Below are positions 76 through 29,308 of a stretch of DNA of 64,000 nucleotides, piece by piece. The stretch lies in NCBI GenBank assembly GCA_965219415.1, contig CBDCNP010000002.1, positions 3,296,001 to 3,360,000 of the forward strand, in the 5' to 3' direction. The DNA is from Candidatus Marinacidobacterales bacterium (GTDB taxonomy: Bacteria > Acidobacteriota > Vicinamibacteria > Marinacidobacterales > DATDRI01). Position 1 is the stretch's first letter; each line of letters starts with the position of its first letter. Position numbers and translations under genes: made by a program. The notes under the pieces were generated by a model, which had not been told where the DNA came from, searched no databases, and saw only the letters and a program-made list of their open reading frames with translations.

Positions 76-145
76 TATCTGGACTCCTCTAGTCAAGCCC
101 CTTTCTTTCTAGTCACGCCCCTTTCTTAATAAATCTTCCATCGAA

Positions 146-358
146 GCTGCGCATCCATCGCGTCGTGACGAGTGGGTCAGACTGCAAACGTATCTTCGGC
201 CTCAGTGAGGAGCGTCTTGGGTGCTCCGGGCCATGATGGAAAATCCGCGCGCGAGGAGCCAATCACTTTGAACGACCTCTTAGGGCCAGTGTTGCTATTG
301 GCTTGACCCCGCGCCGGTCCGACCGGTACGCCATCAGTTGGATGGGTATCGTCGCAGC
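146..358 (-). ncRNA. Predicted bridge/seek RNA of IS1111 copy 1
   Basis: Closing stem gctgcg/cgcagc (353-358 with 146-151). Target loop closed by agccaat/attggct (257-303) with guides TAGCAACA and AAGTG. Donor loop (~185-245) with guides TTCCATCA and AGATA. Confidence 0.8.
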
Positions 359-405
359 CTCTTTTGGAAGGGAAAAAGGAAAACACGAAAGTGGAGCCTC
401 TAAAT

Positions 406-1437
406 CTAAGCGGCCACCGGCGACTGGAATTCACTCTCGCGGGTGGAGACGGCCCAGACGATCCGGGCGAGTTTGTTGGCGACAGCAATCACGGCCTTGT
501 TGTGTCCCCGCGAGCGGTGGACCTTCCGAGCCCAGGCGCGGAGCTTGTCGGGCGGGCTCTTGCTGACGTTCGCCGCGCGGAGCACGGCGCGCCCGCCCTG
601 GGTGAGGAGCATACGGAGGTAGGAGTCGCCACGCTTGGTGATGCGTCCGAGGCGGCGAATGTCGCCACTGGAGTTTTCCTTGGGAACTAGGCCGAGGTAG
701 CTCGAGAAGCGGCGCCCCGATGGGAAGCGGCGAAGATCGCCGACGAAGCCCACGATGGCGGTCGCGGCCAGAAGTCCGATGCCGGGAATGGCGAGAAGTC
801 GTTGGACTTCAGGAAGCTGCTTGGTGAGCGCCTTGAGCTCGTGCTCGATGCTAGCGCACTTGTCCTTGAGTTCTCGAATCTCGGAGCAGGCATCACGGAG
901 ATGCGAACGGAGCACGTCGGGCAAATCAGAATCAGCGTCTTCGACGAGTTCGAAGAGGGCGGGCACGACGAAGTGAGCGCCCTTTGGGATGATGAATCCG
1001 AGTTCGCGCAGGAGCCCGCGTACGGCATTGATGCGTGCGGTCCGTGTGGAGAGCCATCCTGAGCGCAGGCGATGGAGCGCAGCGAGGGTGTGCTGGTGCA
1101 CGGACTTGATGGGTACGGGAAGAAGCTCCTCGTTCCTGTAGGCCTCGAGCAACGCCTTCGTGTCGGCGCGGTCGTTCTTGCTCCCGCGTCGATACGGCCT
1201 CACGAGGTGAGGTGGGAGCAGGACGACGTCGTGTCCCAACCTTCGGAACGTCCTTGCCCAGAAGTGAGCCGAGCCGCAGGCTTCGAGAAGCACGGTGGCA
1301 GCGCTCTGTTTGGCAAAGAACGACACCAATTTGGGTCGACTCACACGGAGTTGCTTGGACACCTTCCCCGCTTCTCCCGAGATGGCAATCTCGAAGACGT
1401 TCTTTGCAAGATCCACAGCGATTGTCGTATCTTTCAT
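406..1437 (-). CDS. IS110-family DEDD transposase/recombinase
   Basis: AVDLAK, LLEACG and KNDRAD (DEDD RuvC-like motifs); C-terminal GLVPKENSSG with the catalytic serine; GGAGGA RBS before the ATG at 1437. Confidence 0.95.
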   Translation of the reverse strand: MKDTTIAVDLAKNVFEIAISGEAGKVSKQLRVSRPKLVSFFAKQSAATVLLEACGSAHFWARTFRRLGHDVVLLPPHLVRPYRRGSKNDRADTKALLEAYRNEELLPVPIKSVHQHTLAALHRLRSGWLSTRTARINAVRGLLRELGFIIPKGAHFVVPALFELVEDADSDLPDVLRSHLRDACSEIRELKDKCASIEHELKALTKQLPEVQRLLAIPGIGLLAATAIVGFVGDLRRFPSGRRFSSYLGLVPKENSSGDIRRLGRITKRGDSYLRMLLTQGGRAVLRAANVSKSPPDKLRAWARKVHRSRGHNKAVIAVANKLARIVWAVSTRESEFQSPVAA

Positions 1438-1538
1438 TCGGACTCCTCCTTTTCGATGCGTATTCGACTGACTTTGGCACATCGATGCCGTCTATGTCAG
1501 TGGAGGAGTCCATTCCATCACTTGATGGCGGAAGCACC

Positions 1539-5806: not shown

Positions 5807-5973
5807 GGTGCTTGCGCTGTTTGCTGTTGGTGATGTGTACGTATCCCTTTGCAAAAAAAGCGCTTACGCTCCATTTAGCGCGCGGGGAAGGTCGCGAGCG
5901 CTATTTTGGCTGTAATTTAATGCAGCATAAAGTCTTAGCGTCATCTCACCAACACTTCAATGGCGGAAGCACC
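5807..5973 (+). mobile_element. ~166-bp MITE with IS1-type ends (family A), copy 1
   Basis: ggtgcttgcgc...gcggaagcacc; six copies in the window; ends resemble the TIRs of the 6080-7277 element. Confidence 0.85.
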
Positions 5974-6079: not shown

Positions 6080-7277
6080 GGTGCTTCCGCAATTAAGTGT
6101 TGGCGGCCAGCCCCTAACCGGTCTGCGTGCTAGAGTTTGAACCAGAATTCCGAAGACACAGTTCTCTCATCGTCAGGGCCGAGCCAAAGTGAAGAATCGC
6201 AGATGTCTCAATCTCATGTCCGTTGCGGGGCAAAGTCAGTTCCGGAAACATCGTTCGCCACGGATTCTACCGAACCAGGTCCGGGAAACGCCGTCGATAC
6301 CGGTGCGGCGAGTGAGGAAAGACGTTCTCCTCGACGAAAGGCACGCCCTACTATCGTCTCCAACATCGAAGAGCTACTTTCGATGTGGTCATCGCTCTCA
6401 GAGTCGAGGGTGTCAGCATTTCCGCGATTTCCCGGATCAAAGGGATTGCCTGGAACACCGTCGCCCGCTGGCTCGAGAAGGCAGCCCAAGTGTGTCGTCG
6501 ACTCAATCACAGAAGGATCGCTGGCTTCGCTGCCGAAGAGCTTCAAGCCGACGAGATTCGCACGTTCGCGGGCAACAAGAAGACACCGAGTTGGGTCTTC
6601 GTTACAATCGAAGTCTGGTCTCGGCTCTGGCCATCGACGGTGACGGGAAGGCGAAGCTACCGGAACACTCACGCTCTGTTTCGCGACCTTTCGAGACGGA
6701 TGAATTTCGAGCGTCTTCCCTTGATCGTCACGGATGGATTCGAATTCTACCAGAAGGTCATCCGTCGCTTCTTCGGTCCAGCGTGTCTCTACGGCCAGGT
6801 CCTCAAAACGCGCAGGAACGATCGCATCATCAAGGTCGAACGGAGAGCGCTGCACGGAGCCGCGTGGCGATTCGAAGACGCGCTCAATAACTCCGAGGAC
6901 TCCTCGACATTGAACACGTCGTTCATCGAGCGGTTGAATCTGACCATCCGGCAAAGCTCGGCATACCTTTCGAGACGAACGCTTTCCCACGCTCGCTCGA
7001 CGGAGAGGCTCGATGAGCACCTGGAGTTGCTCCGTTGCTATTACAACTTCGTCCGACCGCACGGAGCTCTGAAGTTCGGACGTGAGATCCGAACTCCGGC
7101 TATGCAGGCCGGTCTCACCACGCGACGGCTCACCTTTCGAGACATCTTCTTGGCGACGACGATTCCTTTGTGGTCGCGGATCGAGGTTTTCCTGCTCAGT
7201 AGGGCGCGCAACCCGGTCTCTTCCGCACCTGTACCACTGCCCGCAGCCGCGTAGCAACACTTGATGGCGGAAGCACT
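6080..7277 (+). mobile_element. IS1-family element (Zn-ribbon, HTH, DDE); transposase inactivated
   Basis: TIRs ggtgcttccgcaattaagtgttg / caacacttgatggcggaagcac. Reading CPLRG...RYRCGE*GKTF has TGA at 6313-6315. DDE region 6385-7254 (ADEI, TDG, FIERLN, YYNFVRPH, TPAMQAG). Confidence 0.85.
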
Positions 7278-7597
7278 ACTTTCCCCAAAACTTAGGTCCA
7301 ACTTCAGAGTAAGAAGTTTGGCGAATTGTCCCCACCGTGGAAGCCGTGGGAAAGTAGAAAACTCGAAGAGTTTTCCAAGGTCGCAAAGCGACCGGCTGGA
7401 TGCATACCCAATCCTGTGGAAAAAGGAACGGCGCACCCCCACTTCGTGGTGAAGGTATCAGATCAAGCGGCGATCCATCAAGCGGCGACGTCGCGTCAGG
7501 CAAGACCATCGGCCAGGTGTTTATAGCGGTCGATGCGCCGTAGCCGGATTTGCCCGGGGAGGCGATGAGGCCAAAGAGCAGAGCGACGGCAGATTCC

Positions 7598-7841
7598 GGT
7601 GCTTCCGGCATCAAGTGTTGGTGGCTGCCGCGTAACCCGCTCGTGTGCTAGAGTTTGAGCCTGATTTCGAGAGACGCAGTTCTTTCGGCGATGCGGGCTG
7701 GGCTGACCACACGGTGCCTGACGTTCAGAGACACCTTCGTGTGCACGCCGACATCCTTATTGATGGCGTTCGCCGACACAGGCAGGCCAACTGACACTAG
7801 CATTCAAACACGGCGTAGCAACACTTGATGGCGGAAGCACC
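7598..7841 (+). mobile_element. 244-bp internally deleted derivative of the IS1-family element, with an empty IS1111 target
   Basis: Both TIRs present; gtagcaaCActtgatggcggaagcacc at 7815-7841. Confidence 0.75.
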
Positions 7842-7850
7842 GGATCGAGC

Positions 7851-11390: not shown

Positions 11391-11559
11391 CTTGGGTCCG
11401 GAAACCGATGCAACGTGTCCACGGACTTGAGAAAAGCCAGGAACTTGGGAGGTTTCAATGAAAGACAATAGAATGATTGCCGAGTTGATATCGGAGTTTG
11501 TAGCGCAGTTGGAGAAGCAGCTGCATGAGCTAAATTCACGAATTACTACTGTTCTTGCT

Positions 11560-13219
11560 GAGCCGGAGGCTTCTGAACCGGAGGCTGCTGGGCCAGAGGC
11601 TGCCGAACCAGAGGCTGCCGAGCCAGAGGCTGCTGAGCCGGAGGCTTCTGAACCTGGGCTTGATCCAGTTTCGTGGACACTTTCTGAAAGGCGGATACGA
11701 TGTCCACAATGGCAAAGACAACGCAGCCCCGGCGACCCCGCCGGGAGTTTGATGACGAGTTTAAGGCAGGCGCGGTCCGGCTGGTGCTTGATGAGGGCCA
11801 GAGCGTGGGTCGGGTGGCCCGGGAGCTTGACCTCACCGAATCGGCGTTTCGCAACTGGGTCCGTCAGGCCCGGGCCGATCGGACGAAGGGCCGGACGGGC
11901 TTGACGGGCGTGGAACGCGAGGAGCTTCGGCGGCTCCGCAAAGAGAATCGGCGGTTGCGGGTGGAGCGCGACGTTTTAAAAAAAGCCGCGGCCTTCTTCG
12001 CGAAGGAGAGCGAGTAAGATTCGCGTTCATCCAGGCGGAGAAGGCCACCGTACCGGTCGTTCACCTGTGTCAGATTCTCAACGTCTCTCGGAGTGGCTTT
12101 TATGCCTGGGTACGTCGGCCGCCGTCGGCCCACGCGCGCCGGGACCGCCAGTTGCGCGTGTTGATTCGTGCCTCCCATGAGGCGAGTCGCCGCACCTATG
12201 GGAGTCCGCGGATTTATCACGACCTGCACGAGCAGGGGTATCGAGTGAGTCGGGAAGCGGGTGATTCGGTTGAAACAGGCAGAAGGCCTCATTGCTCGAG
12301 TACGCAAACGCTTCAAGCGCACGACGGTAAGCGGTCATGGCCAGCCCGTCGCGGCCAATGTGCTCGGGCAAGACTTCGTCGCCGATGCGCCGAACCAACG
12401 GTGGGTCGGGGACACGACCGAGTTCGTGATCGGCAGCGGCGGGAAGCTTTATCTCGCGGCGCTCCTCGACCTCTACTCGCGATTCCTCGTTGGATGGGCC
12501 GTAAGTGCTATTAACGACCGTCACCTGGTTATCAAGGCGTTGCGGATGGCACTGAAACGTCGCCAACCGGCCGCGGGGCTCTTGCATCACTCCGATCAGG
12601 GCAGTCCGTATGCCAGCAAAGACTACCAACGTCTCCTTGAGACGCATGGCATGACCGGGAGCATGAGCCGACGGGGCAACTGCTACGACAACGCCGTCAT
12701 CGAGAGCTGGTTCTCCACGGTCAAGCACGAGCTTGGGGAGCATTTCCTCAGTTGCGGCGAGGCCAAGATGGCCCTCTTCGACTTCATCGAGGTATTCTAC
12801 AACCAGAGACGACGACACTCGACCCTCGGCCAGGTCAGTCCGGCCGAGTTTGAACGACGGATGAGGACTTCGCCAGCTTAACTAAACCGTCTACGAAACC
12901 GGATCAAGCCCAACCGGAGACTGCTGAGCCGGAGGCTGCTGAGCCGGAGGCTGCTGAGCCGGAGGCTTCTGAACCGGAGGCTTCTGAACCAGAGGTTGCT
13001 GAGCCGGAGGCTTCTGAGTCAGAGGCTGCCGAACCGGAGGCTGCTGAGCCAGAGGCTGCTGAGCCGGAGGCTGCTGAGCCAGAGGCTTCTGAGCCAGAGG
13101 CTTCTGAGCCGGAGGCTTCTGGGCCGGAGGCTTCTGAGCCGGAGGCTGCTGAGCCGGAGACTTCTGAGCCAGAGACTTCTGAGCCAGAGACTTCTGAGCC
13201 AGAGACTTCTGAGCCAGAG
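11560..13219 (+). repeat. 15-bp tandem repeat (gagccRgagRctKct), about 26 units, split by IS3
   Basis: Six units at 11560-11649, one split unit, and 19 units at 12926-13210. Confidence 0.95.
11655..12912 (+). mobile_element. IS3-family element (orfA 11700-12017; orfB ending at 12881)
   Basis: TG...CA TIRs tgggcttgatcc / ggatcaagccca; 3-bp TSD ACC; A7G slippery site at 11978-11985; DDE motifs WVGDTT, HHSDQG, NAVIES; an extra frameshift near 12253. Confidence 0.95.
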
Positions 13220-13443
13220 GTAGACGATGGCGATTCGCAATCCCAGGAAGACCGCGCAAAGTAATGGACGGCAATAGAACTGAGACAGGGGATAGGCGTT
13301 AGTGCATGAAATCTGTGATCCGCAAAAAAGAAGATCGCGTACCGCCTGGATCGACTTTTTGCGGAGCACAGGAGGTGCCAACGGGCGAGGGAGATGTTGG
13401 CGAACGGGTTGCTACCCTTGAACAATCCTTCGCCAGCGAGTCG

Positions 13444-14004: not shown

Positions 14005-14170
14005 GGTGCTTCCGCCATTAAGTGTTGGTGAGATGATGCTAAGACATTACGGTGCATTTAATTACAGCCAAAATAGCGCTCGTGACCTTCGCTGCGCATT
14101 AAATGGAGCGTAAACGCCTCTTTTGCAAAGGGATGCGTGCACATCACCAACAGTAAACAGCGCAAGCACC
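14005..14170 (-). mobile_element. MITE family A
   Basis: Reverse complement of the 5807-5973 family. Confidence 0.85.
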
Positions 14171-16272: not shown

Positions 16273-16438
16273 GGTGCTTGCGCCGTTTACTGTTGGTGAT
16301 GTGTACGCATCCCTTTGCAAAAAAGGCGCTTACGCTCCATTTAGCATGCAGCGAAGGTCACGAACGCTATTTTGGCTGTAATTTAATGCACCGTAGGGTC
16401 TTAGCGTCATCTCACCAACACTTAATGGCGGAAGCACC
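16273..16438 (+). mobile_element. MITE family A
   Basis: Similar to 5807-5973. Confidence 0.85.
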
Positions 16439-17950: not shown

Positions 17951-18432
17951 GTTTTGGCACAAGACGGGATCTACAACTCGTCGGCCCGTCGTCTAGAACA
18001 AACCGCGAAGCGAATAGCTTGGCCGTCGTGTCCCAAAATACAAACGAACTCTAGGACCCGTGCGCCGGGCCGTAGCCGAGATTATCATGGAGAGCGCAAC
18101 CATCAAGGGCTTGGCAACGCCTTTGTGTTATTGGACACGACGGGGTTGGCCGCCAACACTTCATTGCGGAAGCACCGCTCGTTACCTTCGCTGTGCCCAA
18201 AATGTCCCCCGCCCCACGATTTCTTTGGACAGTGATTTGAGAAACTAAATCAGACGAGGATGACGATATGTCCAGAGGAATGAAGGGGGAATCTGTGGTT
18301 GCGCAGGGAGCCCGGAGGGTGACCGAAGTGCTCTCAGATTCAGCGCGTGGCGTCAAGGGCTGGTGGTCGTCGCGGCGCAAGGTGAGCTTGGTATTGGAGC
18401 TGTTGCGTGGAGCCGAACTGGAGACGACGAGC

Positions 18433-18598
18433 GGTGCTTCCGCTATTAAGTGTTGGTAAGATGACGCTAAGACTTTACGCTGCATTAAATTACAGCCAAA
18501 ATAGCGCTCACGACCTTCGCCGCGCGCCAAATGGAGCGTAAGCGCTTTTTTTGCAAAGGGATATGCACACATCACCAACAGCAAACAGCGCAAGCACC
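18433..18598 (-). mobile_element. MITE family A
   Basis: Reverse-complement copy. Confidence 0.85.
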
Positions 18599-19126: not shown

Positions 19127-19410
19127 TATCTGGACTCCTCTAGTCAAGCCCCTTTCTTTCTAGTCACGCCCCTTTCTTAATAAATCTTCCATCGAAGCTG
19201 CGCATCCATCGCGTCGTGACGAGTGGGTCAGACTGCAAACGTATCTTCGGCCTCAGTGAGGAGCGTCTTGGGTGCTCCGGGCCATGATGGAAAATCCGCG
19301 CGCGAGGAGCCAATCACTTTGAACGACCTCTTAGGGCCAGTGTTGCTATTGGCTTGACCCCGCGCCGGTCCGACCGGTACGCCATCAGTTGGATGGGTAT
19401 CGTCGCAGCC
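19127..19410 (-). repeat. 284-bp tandem duplication of the IS1111 non-coding (bridge RNA) end
   Basis: Same sequence as 19411-19694 and 76-359. Confidence 0.9.
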
Positions 19411-19480
19411 TATCTGGACTCCTCTAGTCAAGCCCCTTTCTTTCTAGTCACGCCCCTTTCTTAATAAATCTTCCATCGAA

Positions 19481-19693
19481 GCTGCGCATCCATCGCGTCG
19501 TGACGAGTGGGTCAGACTGCAAACGTATCTTCGGCCTCAGTGAGGAGCGTCTTGGGTGCTCCGGGCCATGATGGAAAATCCGCGCGCGAGGAGCCAATCA
19601 CTTTGAACGACCTCTTAGGGCCAGTGTTGCTATTGGCTTGACCCCGCGCCGGTCCGACCGGTACGCCATCAGTTGGATGGGTATCGTCGCAGC
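19481..19693 (-). ncRNA. Predicted bridge RNA of copy 2 (extra copy at 19197-19409)
   Basis: Same sequence as 146-358. Confidence 0.8.
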
Positions 19694-19740
19694 CTCTTTT
19701 GGAAGGGAAAAAGGAAAACACGAAAGTGGAGCCTCTAAAT

Positions 19741-20772
19741 CTAAGCGGCCACCGGCGACTGGAATTCACTCTCGCGGGTGGAGACGGCCCAGACGATCCG
19801 GGCGAGTTTGTTGGCGACAGCAATCACGGCCTTGTTGTGTCCCCGCGAGCGGTGGACCTTCCGAGCCCAGGCGCGGAGCTTGTCGGGCGGGCTCTTGCTG
19901 ACGTTCGCCGCGCGGAGCACGGCGCGCCCGCCCTGGGTGAGGAGCATACGGAGGTAGGAGTCGCCACGCTTGGTGATGCGTCCGAGGCGGCGAATGTCGC
20001 CACTGGAGTTTTCCTTGGGAACTAGGCCGAGGTAGCTCGAGAAGCGGCGCCCCGATGGGAAGCGGCGAAGATCGCCGACGAAGCCCACGATGGCGGTCGC
20101 GGCCAGAAGTCCGATGCCGGGAATGGCGAGAAGTCGTTGGACTTCAGGAAGCTGCTTGGTGAGCGCCTTGAGCTCGTGCTCGATGCTAGCGCACTTGTCC
20201 TTGAGTTCTCGAATCTCGGAGCAGGCATCACGGAGATGCGAACGGAGCACGTCGGGCAAATCAGAATCAGCGTCTTCGACGAGTTCGAAGAGGGCGGGCA
20301 CGACGAAGTGAGCGCCCTTTGGGATGATGAATCCGAGTTCGCGCAGGAGCCCGCGTACGGCATTGATGCGTGCGGTCCGTGTGGAGAGCCATCCTGAGCG
20401 CAGGCGATGGAGCGCAGCGAGGGTGTGCTGGTGCACGGACTTGATGGGTACGGGAAGAAGCTCCTCGTTCCTGTAGGCCTCGAGCAACGCCTTCGTGTCG
20501 GCGCGGTCGTTCTTGCTCCCGCGTCGATACGGCCTCACGAGGTGAGGTGGGAGCAGGACGACGTCGTGTCCCAACCTTCGGAACGTCCTTGCCCAGAAGT
20601 GAGCCGAGCCGCAGGCTTCGAGAAGCACGGTGGCAGCGCTCTGTTTGGCAAAGAACGACACCAATTTGGGTCGACTCACACGGAGTTGCTTGGACACCTT
20701 CCCCGCTTCTCCCGAGATGGCAATCTCGAAGACGTTCTTTGCAAGATCCACAGCGATTGTCGTATCTTTCAT
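19741..20772 (-). CDS. IS110-family transposase
   Basis: Translation identical to copy 1. Confidence 0.95.
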   Translation of the reverse strand: MKDTTIAVDLAKNVFEIAISGEAGKVSKQLRVSRPKLVSFFAKQSAATVLLEACGSAHFWARTFRRLGHDVVLLPPHLVRPYRRGSKNDRADTKALLEAYRNEELLPVPIKSVHQHTLAALHRLRSGWLSTRTARINAVRGLLRELGFIIPKGAHFVVPALFELVEDADSDLPDVLRSHLRDACSEIRELKDKCASIEHELKALTKQLPEVQRLLAIPGIGLLAATAIVGFVGDLRRFPSGRRFSSYLGLVPKENSSGDIRRLGRITKRGDSYLRMLLTQGGRAVLRAANVSKSPPDKLRAWARKVHRSRGHNKAVIAVANKLARIVWAVSTRESEFQSPVAA

Positions 20773-21334
20773 TCGGACTCCTCCTTTTCGATGCGTATTC
20801 GACTGACTTTGGCACATCGATGCCGTCTATGTCAGTGGAGGAGTCCATTCCATCACTTGATGGCGGAAGCACCGCCTCCTTCACGTCGCACCGGCGTGGA
20901 GCCCACGAACTTGTAATCTAATAGACGCGCTCAACAATCCCAGCTGGATAGAAAACGCAATTTGGGGTACGCGCAGGACTCCCAGCCAAACTTGACAACG
21001 GGCTCAGTCGCACCAACGTTGAGCCGACCTCTGAGCCGGTGCCACCCACAGAGACTACCGCGTTTCATTCATTCGGGGTGGCCGTCAGGCCGTGAAAAAC
21101 TTGACAGTACCTCGGCCGTACCCAACAACGTCTCGCGCGCGGGAAAATCTAAATCTGTAAAACAAACTATTGAAGCGGAACCGTGGCGAACGGCTGGAGC
21201 CCGGAAACGGCGGGCGCGCCAAGCCAATTGGACACGACGAGATCTCTGGAGGAAAACTCATGGCCCGACACCATACCTATAGCATCGAGTTCAAGGGTCG
21301 AGGTCGAACTAATGGCCTCGATTTCGCCTATGAG

Positions 21335-27779: not shown

Positions 27780-27915
27780 ACTCAGTTGGGCGCGCAACTC
27801 GGTCTCTTCCGCACCTGTCCCACTGCCCGCAGCCGCGTAGCAACATATCTGGACTCCTCTAGTCAAGCCCCTTTCTTTCTAGTCACGCCCCTTTCTTAAT
27901 AAATCTTCCATCGAA

Positions 27916-28128
27916 GCTGCGCATCCATCGCGTCGTGACGAGTGGGTCAGACTGCAAACGTATCTTCGGCCTCAGTGAGGAGCGTCTTGGGTGCTCCGGG
28001 CCATGATGGAAAATCCGCGCGCGAGGAGCCAATCACTTTGAACGACCTCTTAGGGCCAGTGTTGCTATTGGCTTGACCCCGCGCCGGTCCGACCGGTACG
28101 CCATCAGTTGGATGGGTATCGTCGCAGC
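27916..28128 (-). ncRNA. Predicted bridge RNA of copy 3
   Basis: Same sequence as 146-358. Confidence 0.8.
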
Positions 28129-28175
28129 CTCTTTTGGAAGGGAAAAAGGAAAACACGAAAGTGGAGCCTCTAAAT

Positions 28176-29207
28176 CTAAGCGGCCACCGGCGACTGGAAT
28201 TCACTCTCGCGGGTGGAGACGGCCCAGACGATCCGGGCGAGTTTGTTGGCGACAGCAATCACGGCCTTGTTGTGTCCCCGCGAGCGGTGGACCTTCCGAG
28301 CCCAGGCGCGGAGCTTGTCGGGCGGGCTCTTGCTGACGTTCGCCGCGCGGAGCACGGCGCGCCCGCCCTGGGTGAGGAGCATACGGAGGTAGGAGTCGCC
28401 ACGCTTGGTGATGCGTCCGAGGCGGCGAATGTCGCCACTGGAGTTTTCCTTGGGAACTAGGCCGAGGTAGCTCGAGAAGCGGCGCCCCGATGGGAAGCGG
28501 CGAAGATCGCCGACGAAGCCCACGATGGCGGTCGCGGCCAGAAGTCCGATGCCGGGAATGGCGAGAAGTCGTTGGACTTCAGGAAGCTGCTTGGTGAGCG
28601 CCTTGAGCTCGTGCTCGATGCTAGCGCACTTGTCCTTGAGTTCTCGAATCTCGGAGCAGGCATCACGGAGATGCGAACGGAGCACGTCGGGCAAATCAGA
28701 ATCAGCGTCTTCGACGAGTTCGAAGAGGGCGGGCACGACGAAGTGAGCGCCCTTTGGGATGATGAATCCGAGTTCGCGCAGGAGCCCGCGTACGGCATTG
28801 ATGCGTGCGGTCCGTGTGGAGAGCCATCCTGAGCGCAGGCGATGGAGCGCAGCGAGGGTGTGCTGGTGCACGGACTTGATGGGTACGGGAAGAAGCTCCT
28901 CGTTCCTGTAGGCCTCGAGCAACGCCTTCGTGTCGGCGCGGTCGTTCTTGCTCCCGCGTCGATACGGCCTCACGAGGTGAGGTGGGAGCAGGACGACGTC
29001 GTGTCCCAACCTTCGGAACGTCCTTGCCCAGAAGTGAGCCGAGCCGCAGGCTTCGAGAAGCACGGTGGCAGCGCTCTGTTTGGCAAAGAACGACACCAAT
29101 TTGGGTCGACTCACACGGAGTTGCTTGGACACCTTCCCCGCTTCTCCCGAGATGGCAATCTCGAAGACGTTCTTTGCAAGATCCACAGCGATTGTCGTAT
29201 CTTTCAT
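28176..29207 (-). CDS. IS110-family transposase
   Basis: Translation identical to copy 1. Confidence 0.95.
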   Translation of the reverse strand: MKDTTIAVDLAKNVFEIAISGEAGKVSKQLRVSRPKLVSFFAKQSAATVLLEACGSAHFWARTFRRLGHDVVLLPPHLVRPYRRGSKNDRADTKALLEAYRNEELLPVPIKSVHQHTLAALHRLRSGWLSTRTARINAVRGLLRELGFIIPKGAHFVVPALFELVEDADSDLPDVLRSHLRDACSEIRELKDKCASIEHELKALTKQLPEVQRLLAIPGIGLLAATAIVGFVGDLRRFPSGRRFSSYLGLVPKENSSGDIRRLGRITKRGDSYLRMLLTQGGRAVLRAANVSKSPPDKLRAWARKVHRSRGHNKAVIAVANKLARIVWAVSTRESEFQSPVAA

Positions 29208-29308
29208 TCGGACTCCTCCTTTTCGATGCGTATTCGACTGACTTTGGCACATCGATGCCGTCTATGTCAGTGGAGGAGTCCATTCCATCACTTGATGGCG
29301 GAAGCACC

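What the first reader, a model, noticed from the sequence alone, without database searches (positions are those of the whole stretch)
146..358. Decodable IS1111 bridge RNA: both guide loops match the observed target and donor
Seen on the minus strand: a stem-closed loop agccaa-TAGCAACA-ctg-[hairpin]-gttca-AAGTG-attggct. TAGCAACA equals the target left arm plus core, and AAGTG is the reverse complement of CACTT, giving the target TAGCAA-CA-CTT. That sequence is empty at 7252-7262 and 7816-7826 and split at all three insertions. A second loop carries TTCCATCA (234-241) and AGATAcG (189-195), matching the predicted circle junction aTTCCAT-CA-TATCTg with one mismatch. Established: IS110/IS1111 recombinases use such bispecific RNAs (IS621 bridge RNA, IS1111 seekRNA). 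Inference: this is a recently active, reprogrammable recombinase with a CA core.
Basis: partly seen in the sequence, partly recalled or inferred. Interest (0 to 1): 0.9.

Follow-up and report, generated by a model that had tools for sequence, protein, structure and literature searches.

The report
IS1111-type insertion sequence with bridge RNA
This is a recently multiplied jumping gene whose own small RNA carries short copies of both its landing site and its own ends, a known kind of RNA-guided DNA recombinase, here in an uncultured marine acidobacterium.

Summary
Window 76-1518 is a 1443-bp IS110-family element of the IS1111 type: a 343-aa DEDD transposase on the minus strand, 9-bp subterminal inverted repeats and a 330-nt non-coding region downstream of the gene.

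That region encodes a two-loop RNA.
- **Donor loop:** UUCCAUCA (241-234) and AGAUACG (195-189) match the joined element ends, with one mismatch.

The genome holds about 30 near-identical copies. Among sites sharing the same left half, 28 of 99 with the matching right arm are occupied, against 1 of 210 with a 2-3-nt different arm.

In relatives the target-loop guides change together with the flanks (11 of 12 lineages clearly or partly; one miss). The stems keep pairing through compensatory changes.

The closest named relative is ISPa25 (46% protein identity) of the IS1111-attC group, which shares the RNA scaffold.

Expression could not be shown. This is a new, well-decodable member of a kind described in 2024, not a new kind. 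The target is one terminal repeat of an IS1-like element and its miniature derivatives.

The parts
76..1518 (-). Full element, copy 1 (1443 bp), flanked by the duplicated core dinucleotide CA (74-75 and 1519-1520 on the + strand; TG in tnp orientation)
406..1437 (-). Transposase/recombinase gene, 343 aa, with a DEDD RuvC-like N-terminal domain and a C-terminal domain carrying GLVPKENSSG
81..89 (.). Subterminal inverted repeat GGACTCCTC at the RNA-side end (RE). The partner is at 1503-1511.
1503..1511 (.). Subterminal inverted repeat GAGGAGTCC at the tnp-side end (LE)
167..349 (-). Conserved structured RNA region (183 nt), the stretch aligned across 14 homologues. It holds the 5' segment, the target loop module and the donor loop module.
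249..314 (-). Target-binding module: basal stem 314-307/256-249, inner stem 303-298/263-257, internal loop and hairpin 288-273
290..297 (-). 5' target guide UAGCAACA, complementary to TG-TTGCTA of the target top strand in tnp orientation. The match extends to 288.
264..268 (-). 3' target guide AAGUG, same sense as AAG-TG and therefore pairing with the bottom strand
234..241 (-). 5' donor guide UUCCAUCA, complementary to TG-ATGGAA (core plus LE). Positions 239-234 are also predicted to pair with 336-331.
189..195 (-). 3' donor guide AGAUACG, same sense as AGATA-TG (RE plus core), with one C-for-U difference at the first core position
7252..7262 (+). Empty target site in the right terminal repeat of an IS1-like element (about 6080-7279)
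7816..7826 (+). Empty target site in the terminal repeat of a roughly 245-bp MITE-like element (7599-7843)
19127..19410 (-). Extra 3' fragment of the element holding a complete RNA gene, abutting copy 2
19411..20853 (-). Full element, copy 2
27846..29288 (-). Full element, copy 3

Best explanation
Window 76-1518 is an active IS1111-type member of the IS110 family.

Its DEDD/serine recombinase (343 aa) is predicted to bind a structured RNA made from the 330-nt region downstream of its own gene.

One internal loop of that RNA reads the insertion site. [quoted passage not shown] The two overlap on the core TG.

A second module reads the joined element ends in the same way: UUCCAUCA on core plus LE, and AGAUACG on RE plus core.

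The element would leave as a circle in which RE and LE abut. That junction makes a hybrid promoter. The recombinase then exchanges strands at the core between the circle junction and the target.

The target is the IRR-type terminal repeat of an IS1-like element and of its MITE derivatives.

- **Shown here:** anatomy, copy number, site specificity, guide-flank covariation and structural covariation.
- **Inferred from the published IS621, ISEc11 and ISKpn4 work:** that the RNA is made, that it binds the protein, and the chemistry of strand exchange.
For: 1. **Family.** PF02371 scores E 3.4e-24 and PF01548 E 7.8e-12. NF033542 gives 302.9 bits against a cut-off of 140. The C-terminal domain aligns to the ISCro4 transposase (9t56, E 2.4e-8) and the IS621 transposase (8wt6, E 9.1e-8), with the SG of GL-P----SG kept.
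2. **Copies and sites.** The own genome gives 35 DNA matches, 30 of them full or nearly full length. All rows with an intact tnp-side end are followed by CACTTGAT..GAAGCACC.
3. **Natural specificity test.** Among terminal-repeat sites sharing ...AAGTG, the arm TTGCTA is occupied 28 times and empty 71 times. The arms TTGGTG, TTGGCG and TTGGTA are occupied once and empty 209 times. Fisher p = 1.6e-14.
4. **Guide-flank covariation.** The longest exact run between the 5' target loop and the element's own right flank is 8, 10, 8, 7, 8, 9, 9, 4, 4, 7, 6, 3 in 12 lineages. The mean is 6.92, against 3.94 for the 132 cross pairs (one-sided Mann-Whitney p = 1.5e-5). The 3' loop anchored on the left flank gives 5.22 of 8 (9 lineages) against 3.01.
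5. **Clear retargetings.**
   - L047: UAACAAUCG / GCAGCG with flanks CCAG-TG ... TG-ATTGTTA.
   - G009: GCAACUGCG / UCCGGACG with TCCAGA-TG ... CG-CAGTTG, at two insertions.
   - L069: AAGGAUCG / CGUCUUUG with GGTCTT-TG ... CG-ATCCTT.
   - G351 and G453: UAACAACCG with CG-GTTGTTA.
6. **Donor guides track the ends.** RE AGATA, ATATA (ISPa25) and ATACA (L069) go with guides AGAUA, AUAUA and AUACA. LE ATGAAG with core GG (G153a) goes with UUUCAUCC.
7. **Structure.** On 14 sequences, 93.3% of cells pair, against 85.2 +/- 0.8 in shuffles. Twelve pairs change on both sides, against 4.5 +/- 1.5. No shuffle of 500 reaches either value, and slid controls give 2-5. G-U pairs (11 of 14 at one pair, 10 at another) fit only the tnp strand.
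8. **Published order.** In tnp orientation the order is complementary-to-top then complementary-to-bottom. That is the order reported for IS1111-type seekRNAs (PMC11187229, section 9 read).
9. **Promoter.** The predicted RE-core-LE junction gives TTGACT, an 18-nt spacer and TGGAAT, with TG before it. The integrated copy has no sigma-70-like site.
Against: - **No expression evidence.** The four RNA-library runs are kept as contigs. No contig covers the two-loop region cleanly.
- **No Rfam match.** None of the 4227 Rfam families matches the region.
- **One lineage fails.** In G027 the loop does not match its right flank (run of 3), and its tnp-side end is missing.
- **Imperfect matches.** Three lineages match only with 1-2 mismatches: G322, G153a and ISPa25.
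- **Weak 3' target guide.** It is short (5 nt here), and its signal over cross pairs is modest.
- **The donor 5' guide may be paired.** It overlaps a predicted helix with covariation (336-331 with 239-234). Two lineages (L069, ISPa25) carry a G there that keeps the helix but breaks pairing with the core. This stretch may therefore be paired in the free RNA.
- **Non-independence.** The relatives are kin, so the p values overstate the support.
Confidence: 0.9

Rival explanations
1. Only the target loop is a guide, as in the short seekRNA. The ends would be recognised by the protein through the subterminal inverted repeats. The donor-loop matches would then be structural strands, or leftovers, rather than working guides.
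For: - The 5' donor segment lies in a predicted helix (336-331 with 239-234) in which 4 of 6 pairs change on both sides.
- L069 and ISPa25 have G where pairing to the core needs C, and the upstream strand compensates.
- PMC11187229 (Discussion read) reports that the 70-100-nt RNA holding the target matches sufficed for ISEc11 movement. It also says how the ends are bound is unknown.
Against: - The 3' donor segment follows three different RE sequences exactly (AGATA, ATATA, ATACA).
- The 5' segment follows the LE and core change in G153a.
- PMC11208160 (passages) predicts donor-binding nucleotides in IS1111 RNAs, often in a multi-loop.
Confidence: 0.07
2. The guide-like words are DNA-level features, such as protein-binding copies of the target and ends, or scars of self-insertion. 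No RNA would be involved.
For: - No expression data were obtained.
- The element does insert into itself, as the tandem 3' fragments show.
Against: - The stems around the words keep pairing through compensatory and G-U changes, which makes sense only for a transcript of the tnp strand.
- Related elements ISKpn4, ISPst6, ISEc11 and ISPa11 yield such RNAs bound to their transposases (PMC11187229, abstract and section 9 read).
- The scaffold is shared with ISPa25.
Confidence: 0.03

Closest known systems
IS1111-attC group elements and their seekRNAs (ISPa25; ISKpn4 and ISPst6 as described in PMC11187229)
   Same: - The closest named protein in the plasmid collection is an 'ISPa25 family transposase', at 45.9% identity over 99% of the query.
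- The tnp-side end is identical (ATGGAATGGACTCCTCC).
- The RE design is the same, ...GGAGTCCA(G/T)ATA followed by YG.
- The RNA scaffold is the same: stem, 5' guide, GGCC hairpin, 3' guide, GAU(U/A)GGC(U/A) stem, then UGGCCCGG ... GGCCGAA(G/U)AUACG.
- The RNA lies downstream of tnp, and the guide order is top-complement then bottom-complement.
   Different: - The target here is not an integron attC site. It is the IRR-type terminal repeat of an IS1-like element and its MITEs.
- The right arm TTGCTA differs from the TTGTTA of several relatives, with a matching A-to-G change in the guide.
- The host is an uncultured marine acidobacterial lineage.
- The target core is TG rather than the CG written in most relatives' guides.
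[quoted passage not shown] 10, reference list only seen)
   Same: It has the same lifestyle: a site-specific IS1111-type element that hunts the terminal repeat of another transposon, in one orientation, and has subterminal inverted repeats.
   Different: The prey is different (an IS1-like element rather than the Tn21 family). I did not compare sequences with IS4321 or IS5075.
IS621 bridge RNA (IS110 group; PMC11208160, PMC11208158)
   Same: - It has the same bispecific logic. Two loops each hold two guide strands that read opposite DNA strands on either side of a 2-nt core, and the core is included in each pairing.
- It tolerates rG:dT wobbles.
- Its target is a repeated sequence.
- The C-terminal domain with the SG serine aligns (8wt6, E 9.1e-8).
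   Different: - The RNA here is downstream of the gene, not in the upstream left end.
- The strand order of the guides is reversed.
- The subterminal repeats are long (9 bp).
- The core is TG/YG, not CT.
- The donor-binding nucleotides probably lie in a multi-branch context rather than a simple internal loop.
- Only the C-terminal 140 residues align by sequence.

Membership tests
IS110 family, IS1111 group | DEDD (RuvC-like) N-terminal domain plus a C-terminal IS116/IS110/IS902 domain | tested here: met
   PF01548 E 7.8e-12 and PF02371 E 3.4e-24. NF033542 302.9 bits, cut-off 140.
IS110 family, IS1111 group | GL-P----S(t)G motif in the C-terminal domain (as given in PMC11187229 section 6) | tested here: met
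   GLVPKENSSG is in the translation. It aligns to GLTPRRYESG of the ISCro4 transposase.
IS110 family, IS1111 group | Subterminal inverted repeats of 7-17 bp with short terminal extensions | tested here: met
   GGACTCCTC at 81-89 and its complement at 1503-1511. The extensions are 5 and 7 nt.
IS110 family, IS1111 group | The longer non-coding region lies downstream of tnp; the transposase has about 330-350 aa | tested here: met
   330 nt downstream (76-405) against 81 nt upstream (1438-1518). The protein has 343 aa.
IS110 family, IS1111 group | Site- and orientation-specific insertion | tested here: met
   Of 31 occupied sites, 28 have the TTGCTA arm, 1 has TTGGCG and 2 are unresolved. There are 80 exact empty 11-mers.
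Bridge RNA / seekRNA | Two short segments matching opposite strands of the target and overlapping on the core, placed in a stem-closed loop | tested here: met
   Segments 297-290 and 268-264 lie between stems 303-298/263-257.
Bridge RNA / seekRNA | Guide-target covariation among relatives | tested here: met
   Self mean 6.92 against cross mean 3.94 in 12 lineages. Seven have an exact run of 7 or more, four have 4-6, and one (G027) misses.
Bridge RNA / seekRNA | A second pair of segments matching the joined element ends (donor) | tested here: met
   Segments 241-234 (8 of 8) and 195-189 (6 of 7). They covary with RE and LE variants in ISPa25, L069 and G153a.
Bridge RNA / seekRNA | Conserved secondary structure with compensatory changes | tested here: met
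   Twelve of 29 pairs change on both sides, and 0 of 500 shuffles reach this.
Bridge RNA / seekRNA | The RNA is made and bound by the recombinase, and is needed for transposition | tested here: inconclusive
   RNA-library runs are held only as contigs and do not resolve the region.
IS1111-attC group | Insertion into attC sites of integron gene cassettes | tested here: not met
   The target is the end of an IS1-like transposase-bearing repeat and of a MITE. The ISPa25 copy that was read sits between cassette genes of a class 1 integron.

The most novel reading that the evidence does not exclude
The junctions in this clade may carry a footprint of how strands are exchanged.

**Observation.** In 7 insertions of 6 lineages (G009 twice, L069, G351, G453, G322, ISPa25) the tnp-side junction reads TG and the RNA-side junction reads CG. 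The target guides mostly write CG. The 5' donor guide writes the complement of TG, and the 3' donor guide writes CG.

**Reading.** If the donor core (TG) and the target core (CG) really differ, a symmetric two-strand exchange with a 2-nt stagger should leave mixed outcomes. A fixed TG/CG outcome instead fits transfer of one strand cut 5' of the dinucleotide, followed by copying. A 2025 preprint proposes this for an IS110 element (10.1101/2025.10.25.684509, abstract only).

**Relevance here.** The window's element would be the special case in which target and donor cores became identical (TG).
Probability: 0.2. Interest if true: 0.6.

Novelty: new member of a known kind. Interest (0 to 1): 0.4.

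Why it matters
- **Ready-made candidate.** The element is a compact RNA-guided recombinase that is fully decoded on paper: 343 aa plus an RNA of about 180 nt. Its 30-odd near-identical copies argue that it works efficiently in its host.
- **Built-in specificity test.** The genome holds hundreds of near-target sites that differ in 2-3 guide-paired bases and are almost never used.
- **Natural retargeting series.** The relatives move from attC-like sites to the end of an IS1-like element, with a single base change in the guide.
- **No new principle.** PMC11208160 predicts such RNAs in 93% of IS1111 elements.

Tried and rejected
- **Rfam.** Nothing matched in 1-1700 except a chance miRNA hit (E 0.076). 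This gives no information either way.
- **RNA evidence.** Ten runs hold part of the element, and 3 are on record as RNA. All four runs laid are contigs. They touch parts of tnp. One error-free 152-nt contig spans 351-502, and short pieces touch 177-215. They cannot show transcription, ends or strand, so I draw no conclusion. One contig in the run of uncertain type joins 74 to 1519, which is simply an empty site.
- **Promoter scan of the integrated copy.** It found no sigma-70-like site. The two terminator-like hits are on the wrong strand and no more than the shuffles give.
- **attC hypothesis for the target.** I rejected it. The repeat carrying the site continues for more than 700 nt with a codon-like conservation pattern. 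It encodes a protein with weak IS1/rve_3 hits below Pfam cut-offs. The terminal repeats occur in both orientations.
- **Search for an empty G009 target.** A 14-nt stretch of its left flank found only the two occupied sites. The native core of that target therefore stays unknown.
- **G027.** Its loop does not match its flank and its tnp-side end is missing. I kept it in all counts as a miss.
- **L047 variant.** It is single-copy in its genome, so no consensus target could be built.
- **Literature.** None of the 8 listed papers contains 'Marinacidobacterales'. I make no claim of absence from print.
- **Not seen.** Supplementary files of the papers were not available. They may hold IS1111 guide tables that bear on novelty.
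- **Correction to a count.** The binomial used 14 printed rows, three of which are one junction. The corrected count, 10 of 12 distinct junctions, was tested.

Full report
**What is there.** Window 76-1518 is a 1443-bp mobile element.

On the minus strand it carries one gene (1437-406, 343 aa). The protein has the two domains of IS110-family transposases, PF01548 and PF02371. It scores 302.9 bits on NCBIfam NF033542, 'IS110 family RNA-guided transposase', against a cut-off of 140. Its C-terminal part aligns with the solved ISCro4 and IS621 transposases, and the serine-glycine of the GL-P----SG motif is kept.

The ends carry a 9-bp subterminal inverted repeat (81-89 and 1503-1511), with 5- and 7-nt extensions. 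The long non-coding region (76-405, 330 nt) lies downstream of the gene, and only 81 nt lie upstream. The seekRNA paper (PMC11187229, section 6 read) and the bridge RNA paper (PMC11208160, passages read) use these traits to define the IS1111 group.

| Feature | Window position |
|---|---|
| AAGCCAA | 304-298 |
| TAGCAACA | 297-290 |
| hairpin | 288-273 |
| AAGTG | 268-264 |
| ATTGGCT | 263-257 |
| TTCCATCA | 241-234 |
| AGATACG | 195-189 |

The 11-mer TAGCAACACTT is intact at 7252 and 7816. It is split at the three full copies, 76-1518, 19411-20853 and 27846-29288. The shuffles give 0.32 matches on average, against 7 observed.

The single-sequence fold of 76-405 closes the first loop with the predicted stems (z = -2.78).

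**Orientation.** Written in the direction of the transposase gene, the target is CATCAAG-TG-TTGCTACG. The 5' guide is complementary to the top strand of TG-TTGCTA. The 3' guide has the sense of AAG-TG and so pairs with the bottom strand. This top-then-bottom order is the one reported for IS1111-type seekRNAs and is the reverse of the IS110 type (PMC11187229, abstract and section 9).

**Activity and specificity in the own genome.** The 8.05-Mb assembly holds 35 DNA matches, 30 of them full or nearly full length. Of 27 rows covering 1-1443, 17 are identical to copy 1 and 8 differ by one base.

There are 80 exact empty 11-mers.

The site is the inner part of a terminal inverted repeat, GGTGCTTCCGCCATCAAGTGTTGCTACGC. 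This repeat ends two kinds of elements:
- A roughly 1.2-kb element whose repeat continues inward for more than 700 nt with a codon-like conservation pattern. It encodes a protein with weak IS1 and rve_3 hits, below Pfam cut-offs.
- A roughly 245-bp MITE-like element (7599-7843).

The opposite terminal repeats of these elements share the left half but read TTGGTG, TTGGCG or TTGGTA where the used repeat reads TTGCTA.

| Right arm after ...AAGTG | Occupied | Empty |
|---|---|---|
| TTGCTA | 28 | 71 |
| TTGGTG / TTGGCG / TTGGTA | 1 | 209 |

These counts come; two further occupied sites were unresolved. Fisher p = 1.6e-14. The positions that decide use are exactly those paired by the 5' guide.

**Relatives and covariation.** Near-identical to 89%-identical transposases occur only in records named Candidatus Marinacidobacterales. 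Among 61 related genomes, 8 have a match at E <= 1e-30. None of the 7 genomes of the same family has one, and 6 of 19 in a sister family do. This suggests lateral spread.

More distant elements were read in:
- G009 (61% identity, two copies);
- G059 (57%);
- G027 (54%);
- a Steroidobacteraceae record, L069 (46%);
- five loci found with a scaffold pattern in 401 genomes of the phylum, where the reversed-pattern control gave no hits;
- an ISPa25 copy on a plasmid (45.9%).

In 12 lineages the longest exact run between the 5' target loop and the element's own right flank averages 6.92, against 3.94 for all cross pairs. The high cross values come from lineages that share TTGTTA-type targets. The 3' loop gives 5.22 of 8 anchored positions, against 3.01.

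Clear double retargetings are L047, G009 and L069. G027 is a miss. G322, G153a and ISPa25 match with 1-2 mismatches. The lineages are kin, so the p values overstate the support.

The donor segments also follow their ends. RE AGATA, ATATA and ATACA go with AGAUA, AUAUA and AUACA. The G153a end, ATGAAG with core GG, goes with UUUCAUCC. In the 93% variants the end changes A to G and the guide changes elsewhere, leaving U-G and G-T wobbles. Wobble tolerance is documented for IS621 (PMC11208160, passage).

**Structure.** RNAalifold on 12 sequences recovers the basal stem, the inner stem, the hairpin and the GGCC stem of the second module.

| Measure (my column-mapped structure, 14 sequences) | Observed | Shuffles |
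|---|---|---|
| Cells forming a standard pair | 93.3% | 85.2 +/- 0.8% |
| Pairs changed on both sides | 12 | 4.5 +/- 1.5 |
| Shuffles reaching the observed value | 0 of 500 | |
| Slid controls, pairs changed on both sides | 2-5 | |

G-U pairs at several positions fit only the tnp strand.

A fifth helix pairs 336-331 with 239-234, which lies inside the 5' donor guide. Four of its six pairs change on both sides. In L069 and ISPa25 a C-G flip keeps the helix but breaks complementarity to the core.

So the donor-binding nucleotides are probably partly paired, or sit in a multi-branch loop, in the free RNA. This agrees with the remark on IS1111 RNAs in PMC11208160 (passage). It is also the main support for the rival in which only the target loop guides.

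**Expression and promoter.** The integrated copy has no sigma-70-like promoter. When RE, core and LE are joined by script, TTGACT, an 18-nt spacer and TGGAAT appear across the junction, with TG before the second hexamer. A TTGAC-like hexamer just inside RE recurs in the relatives read.

This fits the published idea that tnp and the long RNA are co-transcribed from the junction promoter (PMC11187229, Discussion). The public RNA libraries that hold parts of the element are kept as contigs and decide nothing.

**The one mismatch and the core.** AGAUACG is the common form of the 3' donor guide in the clade. The 93% variant has AGAUAUG, which is a perfect match.

Across lineages the tnp-side junction always reads TG (GG in G153a). 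The RNA-side junction reads CG in G009, L069, G351, G453, G322, G153a/b, ISPa25 and G027. It reads TG in the window's element and in L047. Most target guides write CG.

I could not find empty sites for the CG lineages, so the native cores are unknown. The asymmetry is unexplained, and its boldest reading is given as the novel case.

**Side structures.** Copy 2 is preceded (in window order) by a 284-bp 3' fragment that holds a whole extra RNA gene (19127-19410). Relatives show the same pattern repeatedly, up to three fragments in a row. Of 12 distinct fragment junctions, 10 lie at a TG or CG inside the element, where 15% is expected. This points to recombinase-made events at weak internal sites.

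A 2026 preprint reports tandem non-coding repeat units next to IS110 transposases, with half-matching boundaries, at large scale (10.64898/2026.08.14.744561, abstract and section 8 read). This is therefore not new.

**Verdict.** The element is a new member of the IS1111 bridge/seekRNA class, closest to the attC-hunting ISPa25 group but aimed at another transposon's terminal repeat. The kind is known. The value lies in a clean, highly active example with a natural specificity record.

Noticed in passing
window 19127-19410; also L031, L039, L040, L043-L046, L056: Extra 3' fragments of the element, most of them holding a complete RNA gene, stand in tandem after full copies. Ten of 12 distinct junctions lie at TG or CG inside the element. 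Similar tandem non-coding units are described in preprint 10.64898/2026.08.14.744561.
   Followed up: partly
window about 6080-7279 and 7599-7843; further ends at 5945-5972, 14006-14027, 16416-16437, 18432-18455: A family of IS1-like elements and short MITE-like derivatives shares 22-30-bp terminal inverted repeats (GGTGCTTCCGCCAT.AAGTGTTG...). The genome has several hundred such ends. Only the TTGCTA-type end is used by the IS1111-type element.
   Followed up: partly
LE and RE junctions in L127/L128, L069, L134-L137, L140, L149: The tnp-side junction reads TG and the RNA-side junction reads CG in most related lineages, while their target guides write CG. The native target cores are unknown.
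   Followed up: partly
window 331-336 with 234-239: A predicted helix with compensatory changes pairs an upstream segment (UGAUGG) with the 5' donor guide. The guide may be masked in the free RNA.
   Followed up: partly
own genome, contig C1 (2.07 Mb): C1 has no copy of the element and no exact empty target 11-mer. C2 and C3 hold all copies and all 80 exact empty sites. Contamination is given as 8.45%, so C1 may be another replicon or another organism.
   Followed up: no
window 96-127: The RNA-side end carries a tandem duplication of a unit of about 20 nt. The unit holds a -35-like TTGACT/GTGACT box, which therefore occurs twice. The 98% relatives and two own-genome copies lack one unit.
   Followed up: no
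L080-L083, L089: Several relatives hold 5' fragments of the element cut at the same position (1-305). This suggests a recurrent break or a second element inserting there.
   Followed up: no
window 11503-13288: A long array of 15-nt tandem repeats (family D1) is unrelated to the finding.
   Followed up: no
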